Assembly (NCBI GenBank): GCA_016188075.1
Contig: JACPIO010000025.1
Location: forward strand, 3,579-67,578
Reading direction: 5' to 3'
Source: Candidatus Wolfebacteria bacterium
Lineage (GTDB): Bacteria > Patescibacteriota > Minisyncoccia > UBA6257 > UBA9933
DNA length: 64,000 nt
This document shows, piece by piece, positions 7,537 through 63,948 of the stretch (the first letter of the stretch is position 1; each line of letters begins with the position of its first letter). The position numbers and the translations under genes are program-made. A model generated the notes under the pieces. That model searched no databases. It saw only the letters and a program-made list of their open reading frames with translations, and had not been told where the DNA came from.

Positions 7537-7971
7537 AACGCCTTTATCGGTGAATACTCGCACAATTTAGATCAGAAGGGCCGAATGGCGATTCCGGCGA
7601 AATTTAGAGAGAAGATGGTGGGCGGCGCGATTGTAACGCGCGGATTAGACCACTGCCTTTTTGTTTTTACCAATAAAGAATGGGAAGCGTTGGCGCAAAA
7701 GTTGGTAAGTTTGCCTTTGGCGCAATCAAATTCTCGGGCGTTTGTCCGTTTGATGCTCGCCGGAGCAATGGATGTGGAATTGGATAAGCAAGGCAGAATT
7801 TTAATTCCGGACTATCTAAGGGATTACGCTTGTTTGAAAAAACAGGTGGTGGTGGCTGGAATTTATAATCGTTTTGAAATTTGGGACAGCGAGGCGTGGA
7901 AGCAGTATAAAAATAAAACCGAAAGTCAGTCGGATGAGATAGCGGAGAAACTTTCGGAGTTAGGGATTTAG
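7534..7971 (+). CDS. mraZ: transcriptional regulator MraZ
   Basis: 145 aa; N-terminal IGEYSHNLDQKGRMAIP and second DKQGRILIP repeat typical of MraZ. Confidence 0.85.
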   Translation: MNAFIGEYSHNLDQKGRMAIPAKFREKMVGGAIVTRGLDHCLFVFTNKEWEALAQKLVSLPLAQSNSRAFVRLMLAGAMDVELDKQGRILIPDYLRDYACLKKQVVVAGIYNRFEIWDSEAWKQYKNKTESQSDEIAEKLSELGI

Positions 7972-7982
7972 CTTATTAGCTT
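7971..7982. repeat. left 12-bp inverted repeat (gcttattagctt) of the IVS-protein cassette
   Basis: perfect reverse complement of 8365-8376. Confidence 0.6.
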
Positions 7983-8005
7983 CATTAGCTTTTCAGGGAT
8001 TAGTC

Positions 8006-8371
8006 ATGATGGTCCATTCATACAAAGATTTAATAGTTTGGCAGAGGTCAGTTGAGCTAGTGGTCGCTGTTTATGAACTAACAGAAAAATTTCCAAAAGA
8101 AGAGATTTATGGATTGGTTTCACAAATGAGGAGAGCGGCGGTTTCAATTCCGTCGAACATCGCGGAAGGAAGATTAAGAGGAACAAGAAAAGATTTCTCG
8201 CAGTATTTAAGAATCGCGTACAGTTCGGGGGCTGAGTTGGAAACGCAAGTAGTAATAGCCAAAGCGCTTCCCAAGATGAAAAATCTCAATTATTTAAAAG
8301 TTGATTCATTATTGGAAGAAACAATGAAAATGCTGAACGTAATGATAAGGGGGTTAAATCCTAAAAGCTAA
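8006..8371 (+). CDS. four-helix-bundle protein, 23S rRNA intervening-sequence protein family
   Basis: 121 aa; motif FPKEE...QMRRAAVSIPSNIAEG...FLRIAYSSGAELETQ; inserted between mraZ and rsmH; flanked by 12-bp inverted repeats. Confidence 0.8.
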   Translation: MMVHSYKDLIVWQRSVELVVAVYELTEKFPKEEIYGLVSQMRRAAVSIPSNIAEGRLRGTRKDFSQYLRIAYSSGAELETQVVIAKALPKMKNLNYLKVDSLLEETMKMLNVMIRGLNPKS

Positions 8372-8376
8372 TAAGC
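8365..8376. repeat. right 12-bp inverted repeat (aagctaataagc) of the IVS-protein cassette
   Basis: perfect reverse complement of 7971-7982. Confidence 0.6.
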
Positions 8377-8394
8377 TATAGAAGCTAAAGGGCT

Positions 8395-9405
8395 ATGCAC
8401 CAACCGGTTCTTTTAAAAGAAACAATAGCTTTACTGGATCCGAAGCCCGGAGAATTCATTATTGATGGAACAATTGGTTCGGGCGGCCACGCAGCTAAAA
8501 TTTTTGAGAAAATTTTACCTCAAGGTAAATTGATTGGTATAGATTTAGATAAAGATAATCTTAAAAAAACAGAATCAAAAATTTTAGCTGAAATCAAAAA
8601 TGAAAAAGACCCGCCGGGGAGCGCAGCAGTAAAGATTAAAAATAATTTAATTCTGATTCAGGGAAATTACGCGGACTTACCGGAAATTCTTCAAAGCGCG
8701 GAACTACGCGGACTAAACGCAGACAAACGCGGAAAAAGAAAAGTTGATGGGTTATTACTCGATTTGGGGATGTCGTCGGAGCAGATAGAGCGGTCGGGAA
8801 GGGGGTTCAGTTTTTTGAGAAACGAGAAGTTAGACATGAGATATAACCATGAAGCAGGAAGCATGAATCATGAAGCATGGGCGACGGCAGGGGAAGTAAT
8901 AAATCGATTAAGTGAGAAGGAGTTGGCGGAGATTTTTTGGAAATACGGGGAGGAAAGATATTCGCGGCGGATCGCTAAGGGAATAGTAGAAAGTAGAAAG
9001 AGAATGGCGATTAAAACAACATTTGATCTGGTTCGCATCATAAGAAAATCAGCGCCAAAAAGTTATGAGAAGGGGCGTATACATCCGGCCACCAGAATTT
9101 TTCAGGCGCTTCGAATATATATAAACGACGAGTTGGGAAACTTAGAAAGATTGTTGAAAAATGCGCCTAATATTTTAAAAAGTGGCGGCCGGGCAGTAAT
9201 AATTTCTTTTCATTCGCTCGAGGATCGGTTAGTGAAAAATTATTTTAGAGAGATGAAAAAAGAAGGAAAAGCGGAGATTTTGACAAAAAAACCCATTATG
9301 GCTACGAGAGAAGAGGTGAAATTGAATCCTCGGTCTCGCTCCGCCAAACTTAGGGCAATAAAATTTAATTATTCTACGAAATTCGTAGACGATCGGCGAC
9401 CATGA
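8395..9405 (+). CDS. rsmH: 16S rRNA m4C1402 methyltransferase RsmH (MraW), with a low-complexity in-frame insert
   Basis: MHQPVLLKE...DGTIGSGGHA SAM-binding motif; ~25 aa longer than typical; insert SAELRGLNADKRGKRK is encoded by the ACGCGGA array at 8665-8738. Confidence 0.85.
   Translation: MHQPVLLKETIALLDPKPGEFIIDGTIGSGGHAAKIFEKILPQGKLIGIDLDKDNLKKTESKILAEIKNEKDPPGSAAVKIKNNLILIQGNYADLPEILQSAELRGLNADKRGKRKVDGLLLDLGMSSEQIERSGRGFSFLRNEKLDMRYNHEAGSMNHEAWATAGEVINRLSEKELAEIFWKYGEERYSRRIAKGIVESRKRMAIKTTFDLVRIIRKSAPKSYEKGRIHPATRIFQALRIYINDELGNLERLLKNAPNILKSGGRAVIISFHSLEDRLVKNYFREMKKEGKAEILTKKPIMATREEVKLNPRSRSAKLRAIKFNYSTKFVDDRRP
8665..8738. repeat. ACGCGGA-type periodic array inside rsmH coding sequence
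   Basis: units attacgcggactta, agcgcggaact, acgcggactaa, acgcagacaa, acgcggaaaa. Confidence 0.6.
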
Positions 9406-12785: not shown

Positions 12786-12845
12786 CATAAATTTTTGATA
12801 CTACATCGAGGATCCTCGATACGACATCAAAATTAAAATTTTGGT

Positions 12846-12905
12846 CGTATCGGGAGACATCACGTTCTCAACGTGGGGACCCGGGTTCAAATCCCGGTGA
12901 GAGCA
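12846..12905 (+). other. 5'-truncated tRNA-like sequence (D-arm onward, anticodon loop ttCTCaa, good T-arm and 3' acceptor tgagagc-a) lacking a matching 5' acceptor strand
   Basis: well-formed anticodon and T arms but nothing adjacent pairs with the 3' acceptor; a separate tRNA 5'-fragment-like sequence (gcgctttcgtctagtggtcaag) lies at 12665-12690. Confidence 0.4.
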
Positions 12906-21580: not shown

Positions 21581-21781
21581 GTTGATTTGCCCCTCACGGG
21601 CGTTTTTTATTTTCGTTTAGATTTCGAGGTTGATTTTTCGATATCGTACCCCCACACCAAATGTGGATAATAATTTGGCGTTGGGCAGACTGGATTCAAA
21701 CTTTCTCAATTTAATGGGTTTATCAGGCAAATTTTAAATTTCTACTAAACCAATCCACATTTGGTGTGGGGGTAAAAGATT

Positions 21782-22691: not shown

Positions 22692-22762
22692 GCGGGCGTA
22701 GTATAGTGGCAATACGCGACCTTCCCAAGGTTGAAGCGGGAGTTCGATTCTCCTCGCCCGCT
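22692..22762 (+). tRNA. tRNA-Gly (anticodon CCC)
   Basis: acceptor gcgggcg/cgcccgc, anticodon loop ttCCCaa, T-arm gggag-ttcgatt-ctcct. Confidence 0.8.
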
Positions 22763-22771
22763 CAAATTATC

Positions 22772-23965
22772 ATGAAATTTTTAAATTCGTTGGAGAAAAA
22801 AAGTCTTGCTGGCGAGATTTGTCTTTTGCGGATGGATTTGGATATTGAAAACACGGACTTACGCGGACTTAACGCTGACTCACACAGACAATTGCCATTC
22901 AGATTAGAAGCGGCTTTGCCGACAATTAAATTTTTGCTCGAAAGAAAAACCAAGGTGGTAATCTTGTCTCATCGCGGTAGGCCGCGGTCTGGGATATACG
23001 CGGATAGACGCAGAAAAGAATTCTCCCTGAAGCCGTTTGTGAAGATTTTAGCGTCCTTATTGAAACGCCCCATCTATTTTATCGATTTTAAAAATCTTAC
23101 GAGGCTTAGCCTCGTAAGATTGAAAAATGTTGTTAGAGACTCCGCCCCGGGCGCTATTTTTCTTTTGGAAAATTTAAGATTTTTGAAGGGTGAAATGGAA
23201 AACGACAAAAAATTCGCGAAACAATTGGCGTCGCTGGGAAGTTTTTACGTAAACGATGCTTTCGGCGTCAGTCATCGGGCGAACGCTTCAGTCGAAGCCA
23301 TTACTCATTTTTTGCCTTCATACGCCGGTTTGCACATGGAAAAAGAATTAGAAAAACTGAATGGGTTGACGAAAAAAGCGAAACGGCCATTCGTGATTAT
23401 TCTCGGCGGTTCGAAAACTCACGATAAACTGCCGCTTATAAAAAATTTATGGAATAAAGCGGATTATTTTCTTTTGGGCGGCGGGGTTGCCAATACTTTT
23501 TTCGCGGCTCAAGGATTGCTGATCGGAGATTCCTTGCGTGGAGACAGCGCGGAACTGCGCGGAATACTGCGCGGAATTACGCGGAAAGAATTATCACGAA
23601 AAGTTATCTTGCCAGTTGATGTTGCGATTAAGGATAGAAAAATTTTGGATATCGGACCGAAAACAGTTAAAAGATTCGGCGAAATTATAAAGAAAGCGAA
23701 AACGATTATTTGGAACGGGCCAATGGGATTGATTGAGGATCCGCGATTTGCCAAGGGTTCGGCGGAGGTGGCACGATTTATTTCTCAAAGCCGCGCTTTC
23801 TCTGTTGTTGGTGGAGGAGAAACTACCTCTCTAATTACCAATTACCAATTACCAATTACCAAAAGAAATATTTTTCTTTCTACCGGCGGCGGCGCGATGC
23901 TCGAATATCTGGCGGGCAAGAAATTACCGGGCATAGAGGTGTTGAAAAAGTCTACTGTCGACTGA
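22772..23965 (+). CDS. pgk: phosphoglycerate kinase carrying in-frame repeat-derived segments
   Basis: ILSHRGRP, FYVNDAFGVSHRANAS, GGGVANTF and STGGGAMLEY motifs; ATG at 22772 (the track ORF from 22706 overlaps tRNA-Gly); 10-aa insert NLTRLSLVRL from the 29-bp palindrome. Confidence 0.85.
   Translation: MKFLNSLEKKSLAGEICLLRMDLDIENTDLRGLNADSHRQLPFRLEAALPTIKFLLERKTKVVILSHRGRPRSGIYADRRRKEFSLKPFVKILASLLKRPIYFIDFKNLTRLSLVRLKNVVRDSAPGAIFLLENLRFLKGEMENDKKFAKQLASLGSFYVNDAFGVSHRANASVEAITHFLPSYAGLHMEKELEKLNGLTKKAKRPFVIILGGSKTHDKLPLIKNLWNKADYFLLGGGVANTFFAAQGLLIGDSLRGDSAELRGILRGITRKELSRKVILPVDVAIKDRKILDIGPKTVKRFGEIIKKAKTIIWNGPMGLIEDPRFAKGSAEVARFISQSRAFSVVGGGETTSLITNYQLPITKRNIFLSTGGGAMLEYLAGKKLPGIEVLKKSTVD
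22851..22885. repeat. ACGCGGA-type array inside pgk (encodes TDLRGLNADSH)
   Basis: units acacggactt, acgcggactta, acgctgactc. Confidence 0.5.
23093..23121. repeat. palindromic element copy 3 (aatcttacgaggc-tta-gcctcgtaagatt) in-frame inside pgk
   Basis: 13-bp arms; about 10 extra residues relative to E. coli Pgk at this position. Confidence 0.75.
23545..23590. repeat. ACGCGGA-type array inside pgk (encodes SAELRGILRGITRKE)
   Basis: gcgcggaact, gcgcggaatact, gcgcggaattac, gcggaaag. Confidence 0.6.
23831..23855. repeat. ccaattac x3 tandem repeat inside pgk (encodes ITNYQLPIT)
   Basis: reverse complement of the taattggtaatt family at 12631-12660. Confidence 0.5.
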
Positions 23966-26394: not shown

Positions 26395-26491
26395 CTTTTA
26401 TCATTGACTTTTTAATTTTTTTCTTATACCCTGTATTTAATCGGCAAGTCAGGCGATTACTGTCGTGCCTCACTATCGTTCGGCGCAAAAA

Positions 26492-26572
26492 AATACGAAT
26501 TTAACACGAAAAATACGAATGCCACGAATAAATTGATTCGTATCATTCGTGTAATTTCGTAGATTCGTATTA
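26492..26572. repeat. palindromic TACGAA/TTCGTA periodic array inserted in the P3 stem-loop of RNase P RNA
   Basis: lies between P3 strands gtcgtgcctc (26463-26472) and gaggcacga (26593-26601), making P3 about 135 nt. Confidence 0.6.
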
Positions 26573-26816
26573 TGTAAGTGGCGAGCGGCAGCGAGGCACG
26601 ATGGAGGAAAGTCCGGACACTCTCCCGATGAAAATCGGGATAAACAAGTAGCGGCTAACAGCCGTCGTCCAGCTTAGCGGGATAGAGGTGCGAGCAGTGA
26701 CGTCCCGAGACGAAAGTCGAGGGAGAGCCCGATCCCAAGCTTGACGGCTTAACTCTGCGATAGGGATAAGAAAGCAGAGGTGAAACGGCTAAATCCTTAC
26801 TGGGTGCAAGGTTGTG

Positions 26817-26844
26817 CCGAGCACATAACGCTTTATGTGCTCGG
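26817..26844. repeat. palindrome ccgagcacataacgc-tttatgtgctcgg inside rnpB (second copy at 56353-56380)
   Basis: near-identical 28-bp hairpin upstream of rpmA. Confidence 0.6.
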
Positions 26845-27009
26845 AATACCGCTAGAGCCTAAGAGTAATCGACGGCCCAGATAAATTATCGCCACCCCCC
26901 ACCACTTTTGAAAAAAAGTGGTGGGGGGACAGAATCCGGCTTATGACTTGCCGATTTTTTGTTTGTTAAACTAATTAGTGATTTTCGCCCATTGCGCTAT
27001 AATTTAAAA

Positions 27010-27840
27010 ATGGGTAGGAGGAATATCACAATTAAAGCTAACCAGCTTCGGGATTTGTATTTACGAAAAGAGTTCACGGCTGCCCAAATTGCAAACGTCC
27101 TTCAATGTACTGACGTTACTGTATTAAACAAACTTCATTATTATGGAATCAAAGTTAACCGGCCAGGTAGAAGAAATTTTAAATATAAAAAATTCCCATT
27201 TGACGGTAACTTATTAGAAAAATCCTACATGATGGGATTTCGTATGGGAGATTTAAATGTTTATCGACCAAAAAATAAGTTATCACGGATCTTTGTTGTT
27301 CGATGCCATACTACTTCTAAAGATCAATTAGGTGTTTTCCAAAAAATTTTCTTTAGGTATGGACATTCAACCGTTTCGGTTTCCCCTGATAATTCTTACC
27401 ACGTAAATTGCTATTTAGACCATTCCTTCATTTTTCTACTGGATAAAAGTAAAATTCCACAATGGATTGGGGAGGCTCCAAATCTCGGTTGGTCGTTTAT
27501 GGCGGGATACTGCGACGCCGAGGGTTCTTTTGGAATAGATCAAGGACGAGGAAGATTTAAAATTGATAGCTACGATTATTTTATTTTGAGGTGGATTAAA
27601 AAATTTTTAGATAAGAACCAAATAAAAAGTAAATTTAGATGTATATATAAACAAGGTAGTTTGCGTAAAGATGGGACGTTGTGGAATAATAATTTGTGGC
27701 GACTCAATATAAATACTGCATTATCGTTGGAGACATTCGTAAGATCTATTTTGCCTTTCTCGTTGCATAAAAAAAGAGTTAAAGATGCTAATAAAGTTTT
27801 AAGAAATATTAAAGTAAGAAGAGAAAATGGAACAATTTGA
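27010..27840 (+). CDS. LAGLIDADG-family homing-endonuclease-like protein with N-terminal HTH; AT-rich
   Basis: FMAGYCDAEGSFG (LAGxxDxEG) plus degenerate first motif MMGFRMGDLNV; ATG 27010 preceded by tataat (track ORF starts at TTG 26959); overlaps the lepA start. Confidence 0.5.
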   Translation: MGRRNITIKANQLRDLYLRKEFTAAQIANVLQCTDVTVLNKLHYYGIKVNRPGRRNFKYKKFPFDGNLLEKSYMMGFRMGDLNVYRPKNKLSRIFVVRCHTTSKDQLGVFQKIFFRYGHSTVSVSPDNSYHVNCYLDHSFIFLLDKSKIPQWIGEAPNLGWSFMAGYCDAEGSFGIDQGRGRFKIDSYDYFILRWIKKFLDKNQIKSKFRCIYKQGSLRKDGTLWNNNLWRLNINTALSLETFVRSILPFSLHKKRVKDANKVLRNIKVRRENGTI

Positions 27841-50998: not shown

Positions 50999-52144
50999 TC
51001 ACATTTCAACGGGTTTCCCGCCTTCAATCTGAATTTTTTTCAATTTCAACACCGACGCGCGAGTCGGTGCTCCGACTCCTTCGGGACGTCGGAGTTTTCC
51101 GTTAATTAATTCCGCCTCCAAAATTTTTATTCTTTGAGGTCCACCCTTCGACGGGCTCAGGGTAAATACTCCTGGTTCGGGATTTAAAGCCCGAATTTTC
51201 CGCTCTATTTGAATCGCGATTTCTCCGCCCTCGCTCCGCGCGTTTTCTAAATCCGCTGGTTCAATAAAAGCATCTTCAGTTTTGAATTTTTTGGTATAGG
51301 TGGCTCGCGATTCGTCTTGGGGTGTGAGGTTCAATCTCCCAAATATTGACTCTAATTCATGAGGAGATTGAACCTCCCGAAATTGATTCAAAAATTCCAC
51401 CAGTAAATCGCCGCCCAATTCCGCCAATTTCCGCATTAGCGATTCATAATTCATAATTCCTAATTCATAATTCTCAAGCGCTTTTTGCGCGAGAACTGGT
51501 CCGTGATCCACTTTTTCATCCATTAAAAAAAGCGTTACGCCGGTTTCTTTTTCGCCGTTCAAAATCGCGGACTGAATAGGGGAGGGGCCGCGGTATTTTG
51601 GCAAGAGCGACGGATGAATTCCGATTGAGCCGAGCCGCGGAATCTCCAAAATTTCTTTGGGAAGAATTTTCGCGTAAGCGGCAACTACAAAGAAATCATA
51701 TTCCCGATATAATAAATTTGCCGTGGGTCCGGAATGGTTCGGGTTCGGGATTGACACCCGAGACCCCGGGGCTCGATTCCCCGCGGATCCACGGTCTTCT
51801 GATTTATCCACAAGGGGGCTTGACAACTGGTCATCGTTTAATATACTAATGTTAGGTGTCAATCCCGGATTTCTCGAATCATTCGAGGTTTCGGCAAAAG
51901 CCCCGTTTAAAGCGGGGTTTTTGGTTTTTAAATTTTCTGGTTGCCAAACCGGGATATCGTATTTTTGAGCAATAATTTTGGTAGGGGGTGATGTCAGTAT
52001 CTTTTTTCTTCCCACTGGCCGGTCGGGATTGCAAACAACCACTCCCGGCGCGAAACCGGCTTTAATCAATCTCTCCAAAATAATGGCGGCGAACTCAGGA
52101 GTACCGAAGAATACGAAATTTGGATTACGAAAATACGAAATCAT
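50999..52144 (-). CDS. fmt: methionyl-tRNA formyltransferase carrying two in-frame inserts
   Basis: FGTPEFA, HPSLLPKYRG, C-terminal domain; 381 aa versus about 315; about 65-aa GC-rich insert between the VWQP and VVAAYAKIL blocks (DNA 51721-51925); ENYELGIMNYES encoded by the 8-bp array. Confidence 0.85.
   Translation of the reverse strand: MISYFRNPNFVFFGTPEFAAIILERLIKAGFAPGVVVCNPDRPVGRKKILTSPPTKIIAQKYDIPVWQPENLKTKNPALNGAFAETSNDSRNPGLTPNISILNDDQLSSPLVDKSEDRGSAGNRAPGSRVSIPNPNHSGPTANLLYREYDFFVVAAYAKILPKEILEIPRLGSIGIHPSLLPKYRGPSPIQSAILNGEKETGVTLFLMDEKVDHGPVLAQKALENYELGIMNYESLMRKLAELGGDLLVEFLNQFREVQSPHELESIFGRLNLTPQDESRATYTKKFKTEDAFIEPADLENARSEGGEIAIQIERKIRALNPEPGVFTLSPSKGGPQRIKILEAELINGKLRRPEGVGAPTRASVLKLKKIQIEGGKPVEM
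51442..51473. repeat. 8-bp periodic array (attcataattcataattcctaattcataattc) in-frame in fmt
   Basis: same family as 19166-19206. Confidence 0.6.
51721..51925. mobile_element. ~200-bp GC-rich MITE-like element inserted in-frame in fmt, containing a plus-strand tRNA-like fold and 12-bp inverted repeats
   Basis: IR gggattgacacc (51747-51758) / ggtgtcaatccc (51855-51866); tRNA-like at 51725-51791 (acceptor gggtccg/cggatcc, anticodon arm tcggg-attgaca-cccga, T-arm cgggg-ctcgatt-ccccg, no D-arm); hairpin + T-run ccccgtttaaagcggggttttt at 51901-51922. Confidence 0.55.
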
Positions 52145-52160
52145 ACGAAAAATACGAAAT
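52110..52160. repeat. TACGAA periodic array at one end of the GxxExxY unit (overlaps the fmt N-terminus)
   Basis: atacgaaat, ttacgaaaa, tacgaaatca, tacgaaaaa, tacgaaatt. Confidence 0.6.
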
Positions 52161-52570
52161 TATTTTATATTGACTACTCTTTTAAATTTTACTCCTGATT
52201 TTGTAAATCTAGCTAGTATTCCTAATTTTAAATTCGTTGATTTTAAATAATTATAAATTTGCTCTATGTCTTTTTTACTAAAAACATTTCCTTGTTTAAT
52301 TTCTAAAACTATCTTTCCTTCAATTAAAAAATCTAAATAAATTGTTGTAATAAAATTATTTCTATAATTTATTCTAATTGGTAGTTCTTTTTCGTAATTA
52401 ATATTGGATTTTTTAAAGGCAATTTCTATGGCTTTTTGATATTGATTTTCTTTATAGCCAAAACCCAATTCTAAAAATACATCAAAAAGAACACCAATTA
52501 TCTGATAACTAAGTTCAGGATATAGTAAATCGGGGTTGTAAACTTTATTGTTTTTCGTACTTTCGTACAT
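52160..52570 (-). CDS. free-standing GxxExxY / PD-(D/E)XK nuclease-like protein
   Basis: LSYQIIGVLFDVFLELGFGYKENQYQKAIEIAF ... DFLIEGKIVLEIK; inserted between def and fmt. Confidence 0.7.
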   Translation of the reverse strand: MYESTKNNKVYNPDLLYPELSYQIIGVLFDVFLELGFGYKENQYQKAIEIAFKKSNINYEKELPIRINYRNNFITTIYLDFLIEGKIVLEIKQGNVFSKKDIEQIYNYLKSTNLKLGILARFTKSGVKFKRVVNIK

Positions 52571-53099
52571 TTTCGTACTTTCGTAAGTTCTTACATTTAT
52601 CGATGTACAAAATTCCATTTAGGTGGTCTACTTCATGTTGAAAAACTTTAGCCAAAAGTCCCCAGGCTTTGATTTTGATTTTTTTAGCGTTTTTATCCTG
52701 GCCGACAAGAGTAATTTTTTCCGGGCGTTCCACGTCGCCGTAATATCCTCCGGGCACGCTTAAGCAACCTTCTTCCATTAAGGTTTTTTTATCGGAGGTT
52801 TTTATTATTTTCGGATTAAAAATAGCGTAAAACTTCTGGTCTTCCGAGGTCACTGAATTAGCGCTTCGTCGCGAGGTGGCCCTTACTTGCGCCACAAATA
52901 CTCGCATATCAAGGCCGATTTGATTGGCAGCTAATCCGATCCCATCCGCCTCAATCATTTTCTCTTTCATTTCTTTTACCATCGCATTAATTTCTTTCTT
53001 GCTATATTTAGTAAAATCAAAATTCGCCGTCTGCCTGCGCAAAAATTTTTCTTCTGCCTTGTTATCTCTTGTTAAAATTTTTAAATTTTGATTTGGCAT
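52545..53099 (-). CDS. def: peptide deformylase
   Basis: GIGLAANQIG, EGCLSVPG, HEVDHLNG; start taken at MPNQ (53099); the track ORF extends to 53177 through a repeat-rich region. Confidence 0.85.
   Translation of the reverse strand: MPNQNLKILTRDNKAEEKFLRRQTANFDFTKYSKKEINAMVKEMKEKMIEADGIGLAANQIGLDMRVFVAQVRATSRRSANSVTSEDQKFYAIFNPKIIKTSDKKTLMEEGCLSVPGGYYGDVERPEKITLVGQDKNAKKIKIKAWGLLAKVFQHEVDHLNGILYIDKCKNLRKYENVRKYEKQ
52553..52590. repeat. TTCGTA periodic array at the other end of the GxxExxY unit (inverted orientation)
   Basis: ttcgtactttcgtacattttcgtactttcgtaag. Confidence 0.6.
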
Positions 53100-54118: not shown

Positions 54119-54295
54119 TGAAGAAGCGGCTTTTTGTCGCGATCAATCTGCCTCAAGATACGAAAGAAGAAATTGAAAAGATTCTTCCAATATATCGAGG
54201 TTCAACCTCGATAGGTTCAACCTCGATATATTGCAACCTCGATATATTGCAGTATCAAGTCATCGCAAGCTCGACATTTGGCAATAAATAAAATA
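54119..54295 (+). pseudogene. possible 5' remnant of a 2'-5' RNA ligase (ThpR/LigT-like) gene, disrupted by tandem repeats
   Basis: MKKRLFVAINLPQDTKEEIEKILP then three tandem caacctcgatat-type units (54192-54252) and a stop. Confidence 0.3.
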
Positions 54296-61669: not shown

Positions 61670-61794
61670 CCCTCCTTTTTTGCCCCCACACCAAACGAGA
61701 AGACACGCTTTCTCGTTATGGTGTGGGGGCTTGACAAATTTTTCAAGCTTCGTATAGAATAGGCTGTCGATAAAGAAAGGTCAAAGTTAAAGTA

Positions 61795-61880
61795 TCGATG
61801 CGAATATACGAATTATACTAATGATACGAATTTTATTCGTATAATTCGTACATTTGTATATTGGTATCGATACGCGCGAA
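61795..61880. promoter_or_regulatory. palindromic TACGAA/TTCGTA array upstream of groES (candidate operator; no CIRCE present)
   Basis: perfect IR tacgaattatac (61807-61818) / gtataattcgta (61839-61850) plus flanking gtatcgat repeats. Confidence 0.45.
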
Positions 61881-61885
61881 GCGAT

Positions 61886-62176
61886 ATGAATTTTAAACCG
61901 CTTTCTAATCATATTTTTCTCGAGCCGGTGGAGGAGGAAAAAACCACTAAATCCGGCATTGTGCTTCCGGAGACCGCCGAGAAAGAAAAACCCATTAAGG
62001 GCAGGGTCATCGCGGTTGGTCCGGGAAAGTTGAACGAAAAAGGCGAACGCATGCAGATGTCCGTCAAGGTCGGCGATATGGTTTTATTCAAAAAATACGG
62101 ACCCGACGAAATCGAAATTGAAGCAAAGAAATATTTAGTCGGAGACGAAGAAGATATACTTGCGATAATCGAGTAA
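61886..62176 (+). CDS. groES: co-chaperonin GroES
   Basis: 96 aa; GIVLPE, mobile loop, KVGD. Confidence 0.9.
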   Translation: MNFKPLSNHIFLEPVEEEKTTKSGIVLPETAEKEKPIKGRVIAVGPGKLNEKGERMQMSVKVGDMVLFKKYGPDEIEIEAKKYLVGDEEDILAIIE

Positions 62177-62180
62177 TCGC

Positions 62181-62260
62181 TCATACGAAAATACGAAAAC
62201 ATACGAAATTTCGAAAAATAAATTTTAATTTCGTACATTCGTAAAATTTCGTACTTTCGT
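62181..62260. repeat. palindromic TACGAA array in the groES-groEL spacer
   Basis: tacgaaaatacgaaaacatacgaaatttcgaaaa ... tttcgtacattcgtaaaatttcgtactttcgtaag. Confidence 0.6.
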
Positions 62261-62280
62261 AAGAGTGAGCGACAGCGAAC

Positions 62281-63948
62281 ATGGCTAAGCAAATTATTTT
62301 TAACGAGGAAGCGCGAACGGCGCTCAAAAAAGGAATAGATAAATTGGCGGACGCGGTGCGGATGACTTTGGGTCCGAGAGGTCGGGCGGTCGTGATCGAA
62401 AAAGGCTACGGCGCGCCGCAGGTGACTTTTGACGGCGTCACCGTTGCCAAAGAAATCGAACTCGAAGGCAAATACGAAAATCTCGGAGCGGATTTTATCA
62501 AGCAAGCCGCCGAGAAAACCAATGATAACGTGGGCGACGGAACAACCACGGCCGTAGTTTTGGCGCACGCGATGATGGACGAAGGAGAGCGTTTGATCCG
62601 GGAAAAAGGCTTTAACGTCATCCAGCTGGCCGAGGAGCTGAAAAAGGCGAGCGATGTCATTGTGAAGAGTTTGGAAGCCCAGCGAGAGCTTATTAATGAA
62701 GTGAAGAAAATCAAAGAAGTGGCCACGCTCTCGGCTAAAGACGAGGCGATCGGAGAGCTGATTGCGAGTGTGATGGAAAAAGTGGACAAAGAAGGCGTGG
62801 TTACGGTTGAGGATTCAAACACCATTGGCAATTCTTACGAAATCGTGGAAGGATTGCAGTTTGATCGAGGCTACATTTCTCCGTATATGATGACCAATGC
62901 CGAGCGGATGGAGTCGGCGCTGGACGAGCCGTATATACTAGTTACCGACAAAAAAATTTCCGCTATCAACGAACTTTTGCCGCTTTTGGAAAAATTGGTT
63001 CAGGCCGGCAAAAAGGAATTGATGATTTTGGGCGAAGACGTTGAAGGCGAAGCCTTGGCCACATTAGTCGTCAATAAATTGCGGGGGATTTTTAATGTCT
63101 TGGCGGTCAAAGCGCCGGGGTTCGGCGATCGGAAAAAAGAAATGCTTGAGGATATTGCCATCGTGACCGGCGCGAAATTTATCTCCGAAGATTTGGGGAA
63201 AAAACTGGAAAATGTCGATTTGGGTGATTTGGGTCAGGCGCATCGGGTGGTGGCGAACAAAGACGCGACCACGATCGTTGGGGGAAAGGGGGATAAGCAG
63301 AAAATCGAGTCCCGCGTCCTGCAAATTCGGGCTCAAATAAAAGAAACCGATTCGGAATTCGATAAAGAAAAATTACAGGAGCGATTGGGAAAATTATCCG
63401 GCGGAGTGGCGGTTATCAAGGTCGGCGCGCCGACCGAGTCAGCTCAAAAAGAGTTGAAACAGCGGGTTGAGGATGCGGTGGCCGCGACTCGCGCCGCGAT
63501 GGAAGAAGGAATTGTGCCCGGTGGCGGCATCGCGCTTTTCAATGTCATTTCCGGAATTGACGCGCGTGAAAATTCTTCGAGCGATTCTCCGGTAAAGATT
63601 GCCACTCTCTCAATTTTGCGAAGAGCGTTGGGCGCGCCGCTTTCCGCCATTGTTTTAAACAGCGGCGAATCATCGAGCGCCGTCAGCAAAGATTTAACGG
63701 CCAAGAAAGAAGAACTCAAGGATATCTGGCTCGGTTTTAACGCGGTGACGAATAAAATCGTCAATCTCAAAGAAGCGGGCATTGTCGATCCTTTGAAAGT
63801 GGTAAGAAGCGCTTTTGTGAACGCGATTTCGGTGGCTGCCAATTATTTGACAGTCGGCGCGGCTATCACAGATTTGCCGGAGAAAAAAGAAAAGATGGGC
63901 GGCGGTATGCCGGGCATGGGCGGAATGGGAGGAGGAATGGACTACTAA
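62281..63948 (+). CDS. groEL: chaperonin GroEL
   Basis: 555 aa; AKQIIFNEEAR..., GDGTTTA, C-terminal GGM repeats. Confidence 0.95.
   Translation: MAKQIIFNEEARTALKKGIDKLADAVRMTLGPRGRAVVIEKGYGAPQVTFDGVTVAKEIELEGKYENLGADFIKQAAEKTNDNVGDGTTTAVVLAHAMMDEGERLIREKGFNVIQLAEELKKASDVIVKSLEAQRELINEVKKIKEVATLSAKDEAIGELIASVMEKVDKEGVVTVEDSNTIGNSYEIVEGLQFDRGYISPYMMTNAERMESALDEPYILVTDKKISAINELLPLLEKLVQAGKKELMILGEDVEGEALATLVVNKLRGIFNVLAVKAPGFGDRKKEMLEDIAIVTGAKFISEDLGKKLENVDLGDLGQAHRVVANKDATTIVGGKGDKQKIESRVLQIRAQIKETDSEFDKEKLQERLGKLSGGVAVIKVGAPTESAQKELKQRVEDAVAATRAAMEEGIVPGGGIALFNVISGIDARENSSSDSPVKIATLSILRRALGAPLSAIVLNSGESSSAVSKDLTAKKEELKDIWLGFNAVTNKIVNLKEAGIVDPLKVVRSAFVNAISVAANYLTVGAAITDLPEKKEKMGGGMPGMGGMGGGMDY

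What the first reader, a model, noticed from the sequence alone, without database searches (positions are those of the whole stretch)
61795..62260. Palindromic TACGAA arrays upstream of groES and in the groES-groEL spacer; no CIRCE operator
The canonical HrcA operator (TTAGCACTC-N9-GAGTGCTAA) is absent. Instead the groES upstream region carries a perfect 12-bp inverted repeat tacgaattatac-N20-gtataattcgta within a larger TACGAA array. The 104-bp groES-groEL spacer is almost entirely a palindromic TACGAA/TTCGTA array. These may be the repeat family landing in permissive spacers, or may have been co-opted as operator or RNA-structure elements for chaperonin control.
Basis: partly seen in the sequence, partly recalled or inferred. 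Interest (0 to 1): 0.5.

Follow-up and report, generated by a model that had tools for sequence, protein, structure and literature searches.

The report
Dispersed palindromic repeat hairpins in groESL
The TACGAA arrays before groES and between groES and groEL are real, but they are two copies of a hairpin-forming repeat family that litters this tiny-genome bacterium (and many relatives) at gene junctions, inside RNase P RNA and even inside proteins, and nothing indicates that they act as a heat-shock switch.

Summary
In detail: groES (61886-62176) and groEL (62281-63948) are flanked by two TACGAA/TTCGTA palindromes, 61792-61873 in the 5' leader and 62177-62268 filling the 104-nt spacer. Clustering is far above chance, and no CIRCE is present.

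They are not groESL-specific. The 64-kb window (Candidatus Wolfebacteria) holds at least 28 short-unit arrays. The same arm type sits at the tip of RNase P RNA helix P3 and flanks a GxxExxY (PD-(D/E)XK) gene inserted between def and fmt. Other unit types flank a 23S-rRNA-IVS-protein gene and lie in frame in lepA.

A stereotyped arm of four TACGAA units occurs in many Patescibacteria lineages, mostly between co-directional genes.

Among 74 relatives' groESL loci, the spacer is either 1-47 nt or a 69-155-nt palindromic array built from unrelated units. One relative carries an IVS-protein cassette there. Thirty-one relatives keep a CIRCE, and the leader palindrome coexists with it. The window keeps only a decayed CIRCE relic (61766-61792).

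Best reading: ORF-less, IVS/MITE-like selfish palindromes transcribed within the groESL mRNA. They are possibly RNase III substrates; they do not look like an operator. The family itself appears undescribed.

The parts
61731..61760 (+). Predicted sigma-70-type groESL promoter (TTGACA-N18-TAGAAT)
   Evidence: 11 of 12 matches. TTGACA is invariant in aligned relatives and present at a comparable position in most of the 74 relatives.
61766..61792 (+). Decayed CIRCE remnant. The central AAAGGTCAA is kept and both 9-nt arms are lost.
   Evidence: It aligns column for column with the intact CIRCE of L145, L159, L203 and L188. By eye, 15 of 18 arm positions are mismatched. No CIRCE with up to 3 mismatches exists in the window.
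61792..61873 (.). Leader palindrome: period-9 ATAC(G/T)AAT units, containing the perfect 12-bp inverted repeat 61807-61818/61839-61850. It lies in the groES 5' UTR and ends 12 nt before the ATG.
   Evidence: I2, I3; single hairpin, -42 kcal/mol, z -4.6. Orthologous copies in L203, L145, L159 and L188 sit between CIRCE and the ATG.
61886..62176 (+). groES
   Evidence: Cpn10. 100% identical to P0001, Candidatus Wolfebacteria.
62177..62268 (.). Intercistronic palindrome: TCGCTCA-[TACGAA x3 + TTCGAA]-loop-[TTCGTA x4, spacing 8-10-8]-TGAGCGA. It starts at the first base after the groES stop codon and ends 12 nt before the groEL ATG.
   Evidence: I1; -38.3 kcal/mol, z -5.0. The same element is at the same site in L015/L132. 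Its arms align in register with the def-fmt cassette and rnpB copies.
62281..63948 (+). groEL
   Evidence: Its homologues are called Cpn60_TCP1 in the relatives' loci.
26494..26569 (.). Same-family palindrome (TACGAA/CACGAA x4, then TTCGTA/TTCGTG x4) forming the distal part of helix P3 of RNase P RNA (gene about 26440-26955)
   Evidence: RF00010, 64.5 bits, E 3e-19; 26460-26604 folds as one hairpin, -70 kcal/mol, z -10; P1 strands 26440-26451/26944-26955.
52112..52585 (.). Cargo-bearing copy: TACGAA x5 (52112-52158), then an AT-rich GxxExxY/PDDEXK_3 ORF on the minus strand (52160-52618), then TTCGTA x4 (52554-52585). It is inserted between def and fmt.
   Evidence: PF13366, 1e-27; TIGR04256; I8.
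7968..8395 (.). Cassette of the same architecture with a different unit (TTAGCTT). It carries a 23S-rRNA-IVS-protein (four-helix-bundle) ORF, 8006-8371, between mraZ and rsmH.
   Evidence: I5; PF05635, 1e-35.
28029..28480 (+). Cassette with unit ACGC(A/G)GA(T) carrying a complete GxxExxY domain, inserted in frame in lepA
   Evidence: (I2).
28835..28918 (+). ORF-less palindromic array (ACGCGGAT units) in frame in lepA
   Evidence: (I3).
29184..29265 (+). Second ORF-less palindromic array in frame in lepA
   Evidence: (I1/I23).

Best explanation
The two TACGAA arrays are ORF-less copies of a dispersed family of palindromic 'short-unit array' elements. Each arm is 3-5 copies of a 6-8-nt unit at 7-11-nt spacing. 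The two arms are inverted around a short loop or around a small cargo gene (GxxExxY/PD-(D/E)XK nuclease, or 23S-rRNA-IVS four-helix-bundle protein).

Shown: the family exists in this genome and in many Patescibacteria. Copies sit almost exclusively where an 80-100-nt hairpin is tolerated: a few nt after a stop codon and a few nt before the next start, at the tip of an RNA helix, or in frame in protein loops. The groES leader and the groES-groEL junction are recurrent landing or exchange sites in this clade, occupied by unrelated unit types, by a cargo-bearing cassette, or by nothing.

Inferred: the elements behave as selfish or neutral IVS/MITE-like DNA, spread by insertion and by homologous exchange of alleles between lineages. 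In the groESL transcript they fold into a 5'-UTR hairpin and an intercistronic hairpin. By analogy with 23S rRNA intervening sequences and Neisseria Correia elements, these are plausible RNase III substrates or decay barriers. Any effect on groES:groEL expression would then be a by-product and not a heat-shock control device.

Heat-shock control in the clade is ancestrally HrcA/CIRCE. In this genome the CIRCE has decayed, independently of the arrays.
For: 1) Genome-wide family. TACGAA clusters lie at 26494-26569, 52112-52158/52554-52585, 61807-61850 and 62184-62261. At least 28 short-unit arrays lie in 64 kb. The arms of the spacer, def-fmt and rnpB copies align in register.

2) Cargo link. 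All 13 distinct IVP/PDDEXK_3 ORFs found in the window and fetched loci are flanked by inverted arrays. So are three further GxxExxY genes, from Planctomycetota, Omnitrophota and Elusimicrobiota. One relative (L150/L153) has an IVP cassette in the very groES-groEL spacer.

3) Not conserved as sequence. The 65 unique spacers are bimodal: 27 are at most 47 nt, 37 are 69-155 nt, and the long ones use many unrelated units.

4) Independent of CIRCE. 31 of 74 relatives have a CIRCE. The CIRCE-to-ATG distance is bimodal, 8-32 nt against 78-107 nt, so the leader arrays sit between an intact CIRCE and the ATG. Long spacers occur in 17 of 30 loci with CIRCE and 23 of 39 without.

5) Discordant evolution. 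L138 and L139 have 99-100% identical flanks but different spacers. L139 and L152 have identical spacers with 33% divergence at four-fold sites.

6) No strand bias in folding: 15 against 20, p = 0.26. No Rfam family matches.

7) Stereotyped, widespread element. The arm is C-TACGAA-n-TACGAA-(4-5 nt, non-complementary)-TACGAA-nn-TACGAA. It is found in 43 of 120 loci, 33 of them labelled as candidate phyla radiation (CPR) lineages. 20 of 23 paired copies lie between co-directional genes, a median of about 6 nt after the stop and about 11 nt before the ATG.

8) Literature. Coxiella IVS is a selfish element carrying an S23p ORF and is excised by RNase III (PMC4990558). 23S_rRNA_IVP ORFs occur in CPR rRNA insertions (PMC11270868). 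RNase III cleaves Correia elements, and RPEs insert in frame (PMC10969869).
Against: - The spacer copy is about 89-92% identical between the window and L132 (stems about 96-100%), although groEL four-fold sites differ at 60% and groES at 36%. This implies either constraint on this copy or recent element-specific transfer.
- More than half of relatives keep some hairpin at this junction, which could reflect selection for structure.
- No transposase, target-site duplication or empty/filled pair within one population was seen, so mobility is inferred, not shown.
- RNase III processing is untested.
- Conservation of the hexamers, but not the linkers, across many lineages suggests recognition by an unidentified factor whose role could include regulation.
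Confidence: 0.72

Rival explanations
1. Co-opted RNA element. The leader and intercistronic hairpins are now functional parts of the groESL mRNA. They would set mRNA stability or processing, the groES:groEL ratio, or temperature-dependent translation, whatever their origin.
For: - Both regions form very stable hairpins.
- The stems of the spacer copy are far more conserved between the window and L132 than synonymous sites, while the loop has diverged.
- 37 of 65 unique spacers in relatives are hairpin arrays at the same junction.
- The basal stem TCGCUCA/UGAGCGA contains the only purine-rich stretch (GAGUGAG) upstream of groEL.
- Correia and ERIC elements are precedents for effects on mRNA (PMC10969869).
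Against: - Sense and antisense folding energies show no bias.
- Neither start codon is inside a hairpin.
- The basal stem is G+C-rich, unlike known RNA thermometers (own knowledge).
- 27 of 65 spacers are at most 47 nt, so the hairpin is dispensable.
- The same element type sits at many unrelated gene junctions and inside RNase P RNA.
- Near-identical genomes carry different spacers.
Confidence: 0.2
2. DNA operator. The TACGAA hexamer arrays are binding sites for a repressor or activator that has replaced HrcA/CIRCE in controlling groESL.
For: - CIRCE is decayed in this genome.
- The hexamers are conserved while the linkers are not, and the spacing is close to a helical repeat. This is typical of protein recognition.
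Against: - The orthologous leader palindrome coexists with an intact CIRCE in L145, L159, L188 and L203.
- The arrays start about 30 nt downstream of the -10 element and one is intercistronic.
- Identical arm types lie in rnpB, around a GxxExxY gene, and at dozens of unrelated junctions in other genomes.
- Close relatives have other units or none.
Confidence: 0.05
3. The arrays arose in place by replication slippage or palindrome amplification of simple sequence, without any mobile or shared element. That is, they are local low-complexity DNA.
For: - Many tandem heptamer arrays occur in the window.
- Unit sequences differ between lineages at the same site, as expected for concerted evolution in place.
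Against: - The same four-unit 7/8-10-8 architecture with the same hexamer recurs at several sites in this genome and in at least 33 CPR-labelled loci.
- Cargo subfamily correlates with unit type across phyla.
- Identical spacers lie in diverged backgrounds.
Confidence: 0.03

Closest known systems
23S rRNA intervening sequences (IVS) with the S23p / 23S_rRNA_IVP ORF (Leptospira and Coxiella; insertions in CPR rRNA genes)
   Same: - The element is bounded by inverted repeats that form a long stem.
- It has an optional small ORF of the PF05635 family. Such a cassette is in the window at 7968-8395 and in the groES-groEL spacer of L153.
- ORF-less and ORF-bearing forms occupy the same sites.
- It inserts into highly transcribed genes at helix tips (here RNase P RNA P3).
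- It is considered selfish and is excised by RNase III in Coxiella (PMC4990558, PMC11270868).
   Different: - Here the host sites are an mRNA leader, an intercistronic spacer, RNase P RNA and protein-coding sequence, not 23S rRNA.
- The stems are built from arrays of short repeated units.
- A second cargo family (GxxExxY nuclease) is used.
- Processing is untested.
MITE-like palindromes that are co-transcribed with genes (Neisseria Correia elements, enterobacterial ERIC)
   Same: - Dispersed, roughly 100-nt imperfect palindromes at gene junctions.
- Transcribed into mRNA hairpins.
- Known to be cut by RNase III (Correia) or to alter decay (ERIC) (PMC10969869).
   Different: - No target-site duplication was seen.
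- No transposase partner is known.
- The arms are unit arrays instead of unique terminal inverted repeats.
- The family is spread across many class-level lineages.
Rickettsia palindromic elements (RPE)
   Same: Palindromic repeats in a reduced genome that also insert in frame into conserved protein genes and are translated (PMC10969869). Here lepA, rsmH and fmt carry in-frame arrays.
   Different: - No sequence relationship was tested or is expected.
- The elements here can carry a whole folded nuclease domain (GxxExxY in LepA).
- The two groESL copies are non-coding.
REP/BIME elements mobilised by RAYT transposases
   Same: - Short extragenic palindromes at operon junctions.
- The ends read CTAC...GTAG in 12 of 14 perfect copies, reminiscent of the conserved GTAG of REPs (own knowledge).
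- No target-site duplication.
   Different: - No RAYT gene was seen or tested.
- The architecture of four hexamers with a fixed internal loop is different.
Cyanobacterial STRR heptamer repeats inside RNase P RNA (Vioque 1997, recalled from memory; not retrieved)
   Same: Short repeated units tolerated as an extension of an RNase P RNA helix.
   Different: The helix is P12 in cyanobacteria and P3 here. STRR are tandem repeats, not palindromic four-plus-four arrays.
CIRCE/HrcA operator
   Same: Position between the groESL promoter and the groES start. The central AGGTC is retained.
   Different: Both 9-nt arms are lost in the window, and the TACGAA arrays bear no resemblance to CIRCE.

Membership tests
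CIRCE (HrcA operator) | 9-bp inverted repeat TTAGCACTC-N9-GAGTGCTAA | tested here: not met
   No match with up to 3 mismatches in the window. The best match upstream of groES has 8 mismatches. The homologous segment 61766-61792 keeps only the centre.
CIRCE (HrcA operator) | Located between the promoter and the start of groES or dnaK operons | tested here: inconclusive
   The relic is at the right place, and 31 of 74 relatives have a CIRCE there. The TACGAA arrays lie downstream of it.
CIRCE (HrcA operator) | hrcA gene present in the genome | not testable with these tools
   Only 64 kb of the genome is available. A crude motif scan for HrcA, DnaK, sigma factors and RNase III in the window found nothing.
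23S rRNA IVS-type element | Element bounded by inverted repeats that form an extended stem | tested here: met
23S rRNA IVS-type element | Optional internal ORF of the 23S_rRNA_IVP (PF05635) family | tested here: met
   Met for the family: window 8006-8371, the L153 groES-groEL spacer, and 8 IVP ORFs all flanked by arrays. The two groESL copies in the window are ORF-less.
23S rRNA IVS-type element | Inserted in helices of 23S rRNA | tested here: not met
   The sites here are an mRNA leader and spacer, rnpB P3 and coding sequence. No rRNA gene is in the window.
23S rRNA IVS-type element | Excised from the transcript by RNase III | not testable with these tools
   This needs RNA-end mapping or an in-vitro cleavage assay.
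MITE | Terminal inverted repeats and many dispersed copies | tested here: met
MITE | Target-site duplication flanking the element | tested here: not met
   The flanks of 14 perfect copies are inverted (..TC/GA..), not direct repeats. No duplication is seen at the groES-groEL site when filled and short spacers are compared.
MITE | A cognate autonomous element sharing the same ends and encoding a transposase | tested here: inconclusive
   The def-fmt cassette shares its arms with the spacer copy. Its ORF is a GxxExxY PD-(D/E)XK protein of unknown function (PMC3424549), not a known transposase.
REP/BIME-RAYT | Conserved GTAG/CTAC tetranucleotide at the foot of the palindrome | tested here: inconclusive
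   12 of 14 perfect copies read C-TACGAA...TTCGTA-G. The window's spacer copy reads A-TACGAA...TTCGTA-A.
REP/BIME-RAYT | RAYT (Y1 HUH transposase) gene in the genome | not tested
   No search was made, and only 64 kb is available.
RNA thermometer (ROSE / fourU type) | A weak hairpin that sequesters the Shine-Dalgarno sequence and/or AUG | tested here: not met
   Both AUGs lie 12 nt outside the hairpins. The basal stem of the spacer hairpin is G+C-rich.
Any Rfam family | Score at or above the gathering threshold | tested here: not met
   Only tRNAs pass in the window. The E-value scan of 61700-62300 gives only generic hairpin (miRNA-precursor) hits far below threshold.

The most novel reading that the evidence does not exclude
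The groESL arrays may be the visible tip of an undescribed, phylum-spanning class of genetic element.

The element is a cassette bounded by inverted arrays of 6-8-nt units. One type, four TACGAA units with a fixed 7/8-10-8 spacing and a conserved internal loop, is shared by dozens of Patescibacteria lineages. The cassettes carry GxxExxY (PD-(D/E)XK) or 23S-IVS four-helix-bundle genes.

In this reading the cargo protein recognises its own arrays, since unit type tracks cargo subfamily across four phyla. It would drive homing or exchange into hairpin-tolerant sites. ORF-less derivatives would colonise operon junctions, structured RNAs and, in frame, essential proteins such as LepA.

This would give both uncharacterised protein families a biological role, and would explain rRNA intervening sequences as one special case.
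Probability: 0.35. Interest if true: 0.75.

Novelty: new variant of a known kind. Interest (0 to 1): 0.5.

Why it matters
For the question asked, the result is deflationary. This organism's groESL has lost its CIRCE, and the TACGAA arrays do not appear to be its replacement. They should not be annotated as operators.

The family behind them matters more, for four reasons.

1. It accounts for much of the non-coding DNA at gene junctions in the parts of these minimal genomes examined here.

2. It inflates conserved proteins (LepA is 789 aa against about 590). It also breaks covariance-model detection of RNase P RNA (64.5 bits against a gathering score of 100). Both affect annotation of Patescibacteria genomes assembled from metagenomes.

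3. It links two large protein families of unknown function, GxxExxY/PDDEXK_3 and 23S_rRNA_IVP, to one common and recognisable DNA architecture. It also extends the 'intervening sequence' concept from rRNA to mRNAs, RNase P RNA and coding sequence.

4. The strict conservation of four hexamers, with free linkers, across many class-level lineages implies an unknown recognition factor that can now be looked for.

Tried and rejected
- Exact look-up of the window's GroES found nothing on record. The identity of the source came instead from the homology search.

- Rfam at gathering and at E-value thresholds gave no family for either hairpin.

- Strand-specific RNA selection was tested by comparing sense and antisense minimum free energies of 37 long spacers. 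There was no bias, so I dropped the argument that G-U pairs prove an RNA function.

- Purifying selection on spacers was tested against four-fold-site divergence. The result is mixed. Some pairs look constrained. Others show allele replacement or recombination mosaics, so conservation cannot be read simply as function.

- A target-site duplication was looked for in 14 perfect copies. None was found.

- The canonical four-unit arm was searched in 2.9 million viral contigs, with 0 hits. There is therefore no evidence for a phage vector.

- A motif scan of the window for HrcA, DnaK, GrpE, sigma factors and RNase III found nothing. This is a weak test on only 64 kb.

- I considered whether an orphan arm could itself be a promoter, or whether the central AGGTCAAA could be a CtsR half-site. 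Both were judged by eye only and rejected as unsupported.

- Nine literature searches (GxxExxY, PDDEXK_3, PF05635/IVS protein, palindromic + CPR, four-helix bundle + IVS, STRR + RNase P, RPE, TACGAA/TTCGTA, IVS + RNase III) found no description of these arrays. The library is incomplete, so this does not prove novelty.

- About half of the 120 pattern-scan loci are chance or simple tandem repeats in unrelated taxa (Streptomyces, Thiothrix and others). They were not counted as family members.
Full report
**1. What is at the coordinates**

groES is 61886..62176 and groEL is 62281..63948. GroES is 100% identical to a Candidatus Wolfebacteria protein.

A near-consensus promoter lies at 61731-61760: TTGACA-N18-TAGAAT, 11 of 12 matches. 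Its TTGACA is invariant in aligned relatives.

Downstream, 61792-61873 is an imperfect palindrome of period-9 ATAC(G/T)AAT units. As RNA it folds into one hairpin of -42 kcal/mol, z -4.6. The hairpin ends 12 nt before the groES ATG.

The 104-nt spacer is one palindrome, 62177-62268. It reads TCGCTCA, then three TACGAA and one TTCGAA, a loop, four TTCGTA at 8-10-8 spacing, then TGAGCGA. Its fold is -38.3 kcal/mol, z -5.0.

TACGAA occurs 68 times in the window against 37 +/- 7 expected. Up to 7 hits fall in 100 nt, against at most 3 in 200 simulations.

No CIRCE with up to 3 mismatches exists in the window.

**2. The arrays are not specific to groESL**

The other TACGAA clusters are informative.

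- *RNase P RNA.* 26494-26569 is a four-plus-four palindrome (TACGAA/CACGAA) lying inside the RNase P RNA gene. A perfect 12-bp P1 helix is formed by 26440-26451 and 26944-26955. The segment 26460-26604 folds into one long hairpin (-70 kcal/mol, z -10) directly before the conserved GGAGGAAAGUCCGG, which is the P3 position. Because of this insert the gene scores only 64.5 bits against the Rfam gathering score of 100.

- *def-fmt cassette.* 52112-52158 (five TACGAA) and 52554-52585 (four TTCGTA, 8-10-8) flank an AT-rich GxxExxY/PDDEXK_3 ORF inserted between def and fmt.

The arms of these copies align in register with the groES-groEL spacer arms.

Cassettes of the same architecture with other units are also present.

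- TTAGCTT arrays surround a 23S-rRNA-IVS-protein ORF between mraZ and rsmH, at 7968-8395.
- ACGC(A/G)GA(T) arrays surround a complete GxxExxY domain that is in frame inside lepA.
- Two further ORF-less palindromic arrays are in frame in lepA.

LepA is 789 aa here. Its 120 closest homologues are 404-602 aa, with the full-length ones about 540-602 aa, and they lack all three inserts.

In all I listed 28 short-unit arrays in the 64 kb, mostly at gene junctions or in frame in ORFs.

**3. The same element elsewhere**

In 43 of them the match is part of a stereotyped four-unit arm: C-TACGAA-n-TACGAA-(4-6 nt)-TACGAA-nn-TACGAA. The outermost unit lies outside the search pattern, so its presence is independent evidence. 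Of the 43 loci, 33 are labelled as Patescibacteria lineages, 3 as Bacteroidota, and 7 are unclassified or doubtfully binned.

The arm is usually followed, after an 8-44-nt loop, by its mirror image (47 of 53 paired cases).

In 14 perfect copies the structure is as follows.
- The central 4-5-nt linkers are not complementary (19%) and are often unequal in length.
- The 2-nt linkers are mostly complementary (68%).
- The ends read C...G in 12 of 14.

The structure is therefore two roughly 14-bp helices separated by a fixed internal loop.

Of the 23 paired copies with callable neighbours, 20 lie between co-directional genes. They start a median of about 6 nt after the stop codon and end about 11 nt before the next ATG.

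None of 2.9 million viral contigs carries the four-unit arm. No Rfam family matches. I found no paper describing these arrays.

**4. Link to cargo genes**

All 13 distinct IVP or PDDEXK_3 ORFs found in the window and fetched loci have inverted short-unit arrays on both sides.

Three further GxxExxY genes, from Planctomycetota, Omnitrophota and Elusimicrobiota, are also flanked by arrays. Their unit is ACGCAGAT/CACGGAT, the same type as around the LepA insert.

GxxExxY proteins with that unit type are 44-51% identical to each other and 29-39% identical to the rest. The copies flanked by TACGAA/CGAAT-type units form a second, looser group. One exception is L049 (n = 10). ORF and arrays therefore appear to travel together.

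Both protein families are functionally uncharacterised (PMC3424549, PMC11270868).

**5. groESL in relatives**

I compared 74 unique groESL loci with GroES 77-90% identical to the window's.

*Spacer.* It is bimodal.
- 27 unique spacers are 1-47 nt, mostly 1-10 nt.
- 37 are 69-155 nt. Nearly all of these are palindromic arrays, built from many unrelated units (TACGAA, ACGAAT, ACTAAT, TTCTAAA, TAGCTTT, GCAAAG and others).
- One spacer of 440 nt (L150/L153) is an array-flanked IVP ORF with an internal stop.
- L015/L132 carry the same TACGAA element as the window at the same site.

*CIRCE.* 31 of 74 loci have one (at most 4 mismatches; several are perfect) right after the -10 element. The distance from CIRCE to the ATG is either 8-32 nt or 78-107 nt. 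The longer class has a palindromic array inserted between CIRCE and the ATG.

The window's leader palindrome is orthologous to such arrays in L145, L159, L188 and L203, which keep an intact CIRCE. In the window and in L132 the CIRCE-homologous segment (61766-61792) retains only the central AAAGGTCAA.

Array presence is independent of CIRCE status: long spacers occur in 17 of 30 loci with CIRCE and 23 of 39 without.

The arrays are therefore not a substitute operator.

**6. Function or parasite?**

*For function.* Between the window and L132, groEL four-fold sites differ at 60% and groES at 36%. Yet the spacer element is about 89-92% identical, with nearly identical stems and a diverged loop.

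*Against simple constraint.*
- L138 and L139 have 99-100% identical flanks but different spacers, and the few flank differences cluster at the gene ends.
- L139 and L152 share an identical 117-nt spacer within genes that differ at 33% of four-fold sites.
- L137 and L164 form a recombination mosaic.
- Sense and antisense folding energies of 37 long spacers do not differ: 15 against 20, p = 0.26.
- Neither start codon is sequestered.

The pattern fits elements that are exchanged or re-inserted at a tolerant site better than a conserved regulatory RNA. A by-product effect on mRNA processing remains plausible.

**7. Mechanism, with what is shown and what is inferred**

*Shown.*
- The family exists.
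- ORF-less and cargo-bearing forms share the same arms in one genome.
- Copies are placed at hairpin-tolerant sites.
- Occupancy of the two groESL sites is recurrent and variable.
- The arrays coexist with CIRCE.

*Inferred.*
- The elements are selfish or neutral, IVS/MITE-like.
- They are transcribed within the groESL mRNA.
- They are likely RNase III substrates or decay barriers. This is by analogy with the Coxiella IVS, which carries an S23p ORF and is excised by RNase III (PMC4990558), and with Correia elements (PMC10969869).
- The in-frame copies are translated, as in Rickettsia RPEs (PMC10969869).

*Unknown.*
- The insertion mechanism. No target-site duplication was found.
- The factor that keeps the hexamers constant.

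**8. Verdict**

The 'repeat family in permissive spacers' reading is supported. The 'operator or regulatory co-option' reading is not supported, though it is not excluded for the spacer copy.

As a groESL control element the finding is ordinary. As a family it is a new variant of IVS/MITE-type palindromic elements, and I found no description of it.

Noticed in passing
window 27827-30196 (inserts at 28029-28480, 28835-28918, 29184-29265): LepA/EF4 is 789 aa. It carries three in-frame inserts that are absent from its 120 closest homologues (404-602 aa).
- The first insert is a complete GxxExxY/PD-(D/E)XK domain (aa 86-200) flanked by translated arrays.
- Another LepA fragment (P0121) has a GxxExxY domain at the same site, 65% identical.
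   Followed up: yes
window 26440-26955: RNase P RNA (class A) falls below the Rfam gathering score (64.5 against 100 bits). Its P3 helix is extended by a TACGAA/CACGAA palindrome. Standard annotation would miss the gene.
   Followed up: yes
window 7968-8395: A 23S-rRNA-IVS-protein (four-helix bundle, PF05635) ORF flanked by inverted TTAGCTT arrays. It fills the mraZ-rsmH junction exactly, outside any rRNA gene.
   Followed up: partly
window 8706-8730, 8848-8879 (rsmH); 51442-51473 (fmt); 22850-22880, 23535-23586, 23833-23862 (ORF 22706..23965); 52545-52585 (def C-terminus): Tandem 7-11-nt unit arrays lie in frame inside conserved genes. They encode peptides such as NYELGIMNYE and LRKYENVRKYEKQ. 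The fmt N-terminal domain also has an insert of roughly 70 aa relative to the Pfam model.
   Followed up: partly
window 61766-61792; loci L130, L145, L159, L168, L178, L182, L208 and others: Many relatives have a canonical CIRCE with a conserved central AGGTCG. Some have an AT-rich variant, TTAGCAAT-N10-ATTGCTAA (L131, L195, L204). The window and its nearest relatives keep only the centre.
   Followed up: yes
L150 / L153 3292-3731: The groES-groEL spacer is 440 nt. It is an array-flanked 23S_rRNA_IVP ORF interrupted by a stop codon, that is, a decaying cargo-bearing cassette at the same junction.
   Followed up: yes
L137/L164, L138/L139, L139/L152 (groESL loci): There are recombination mosaics at groESL between related lineages. 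Some pairs share identical tracts that end inside groES. Others have different spacers in otherwise 99-100% identical DNA.
   Followed up: partly
window 61682-61730 and 21647-21774: A second hairpin family shares the arms (G/T)(C/A)CCCCACACCAAA / TTTGGTGTGGGGG. The first copy follows the response-regulator gene and looks like its terminator, but no T-run terminator was called.
   Followed up: no
window 54185-54251: Tandem and palindromic 15-16-nt repeats (AGGTTCAACCTCGATATATTG) lie in an intergenic region. They are unrelated to the hexamer arrays.
   Followed up: no
window 12842-12897: A weak tRNA-like Rfam hit (31.8 bits, just above the gathering score) lies next to tRNA-Glu. ARAGORN does not call it.
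   Followed up: no
L015, L173/L174, L207 (downstream of groEL): The same gene junction (upstream gene ending ..VKV(K/S)F*, downstream gene starting MANLYQ..) is occupied by an IVP cassette in one lineage and by GxxExxY cassettes in two others. This suggests shared insertion hot spots.
   Followed up: no
window 61874-61885 and 62269-62280; relatives' loci: Neither groES nor groEL has a clear Shine-Dalgarno sequence. Instead a motif (A)AGCGA(T/AC) directly precedes the ATG of both genes and is shared by several relatives.
   Followed up: no
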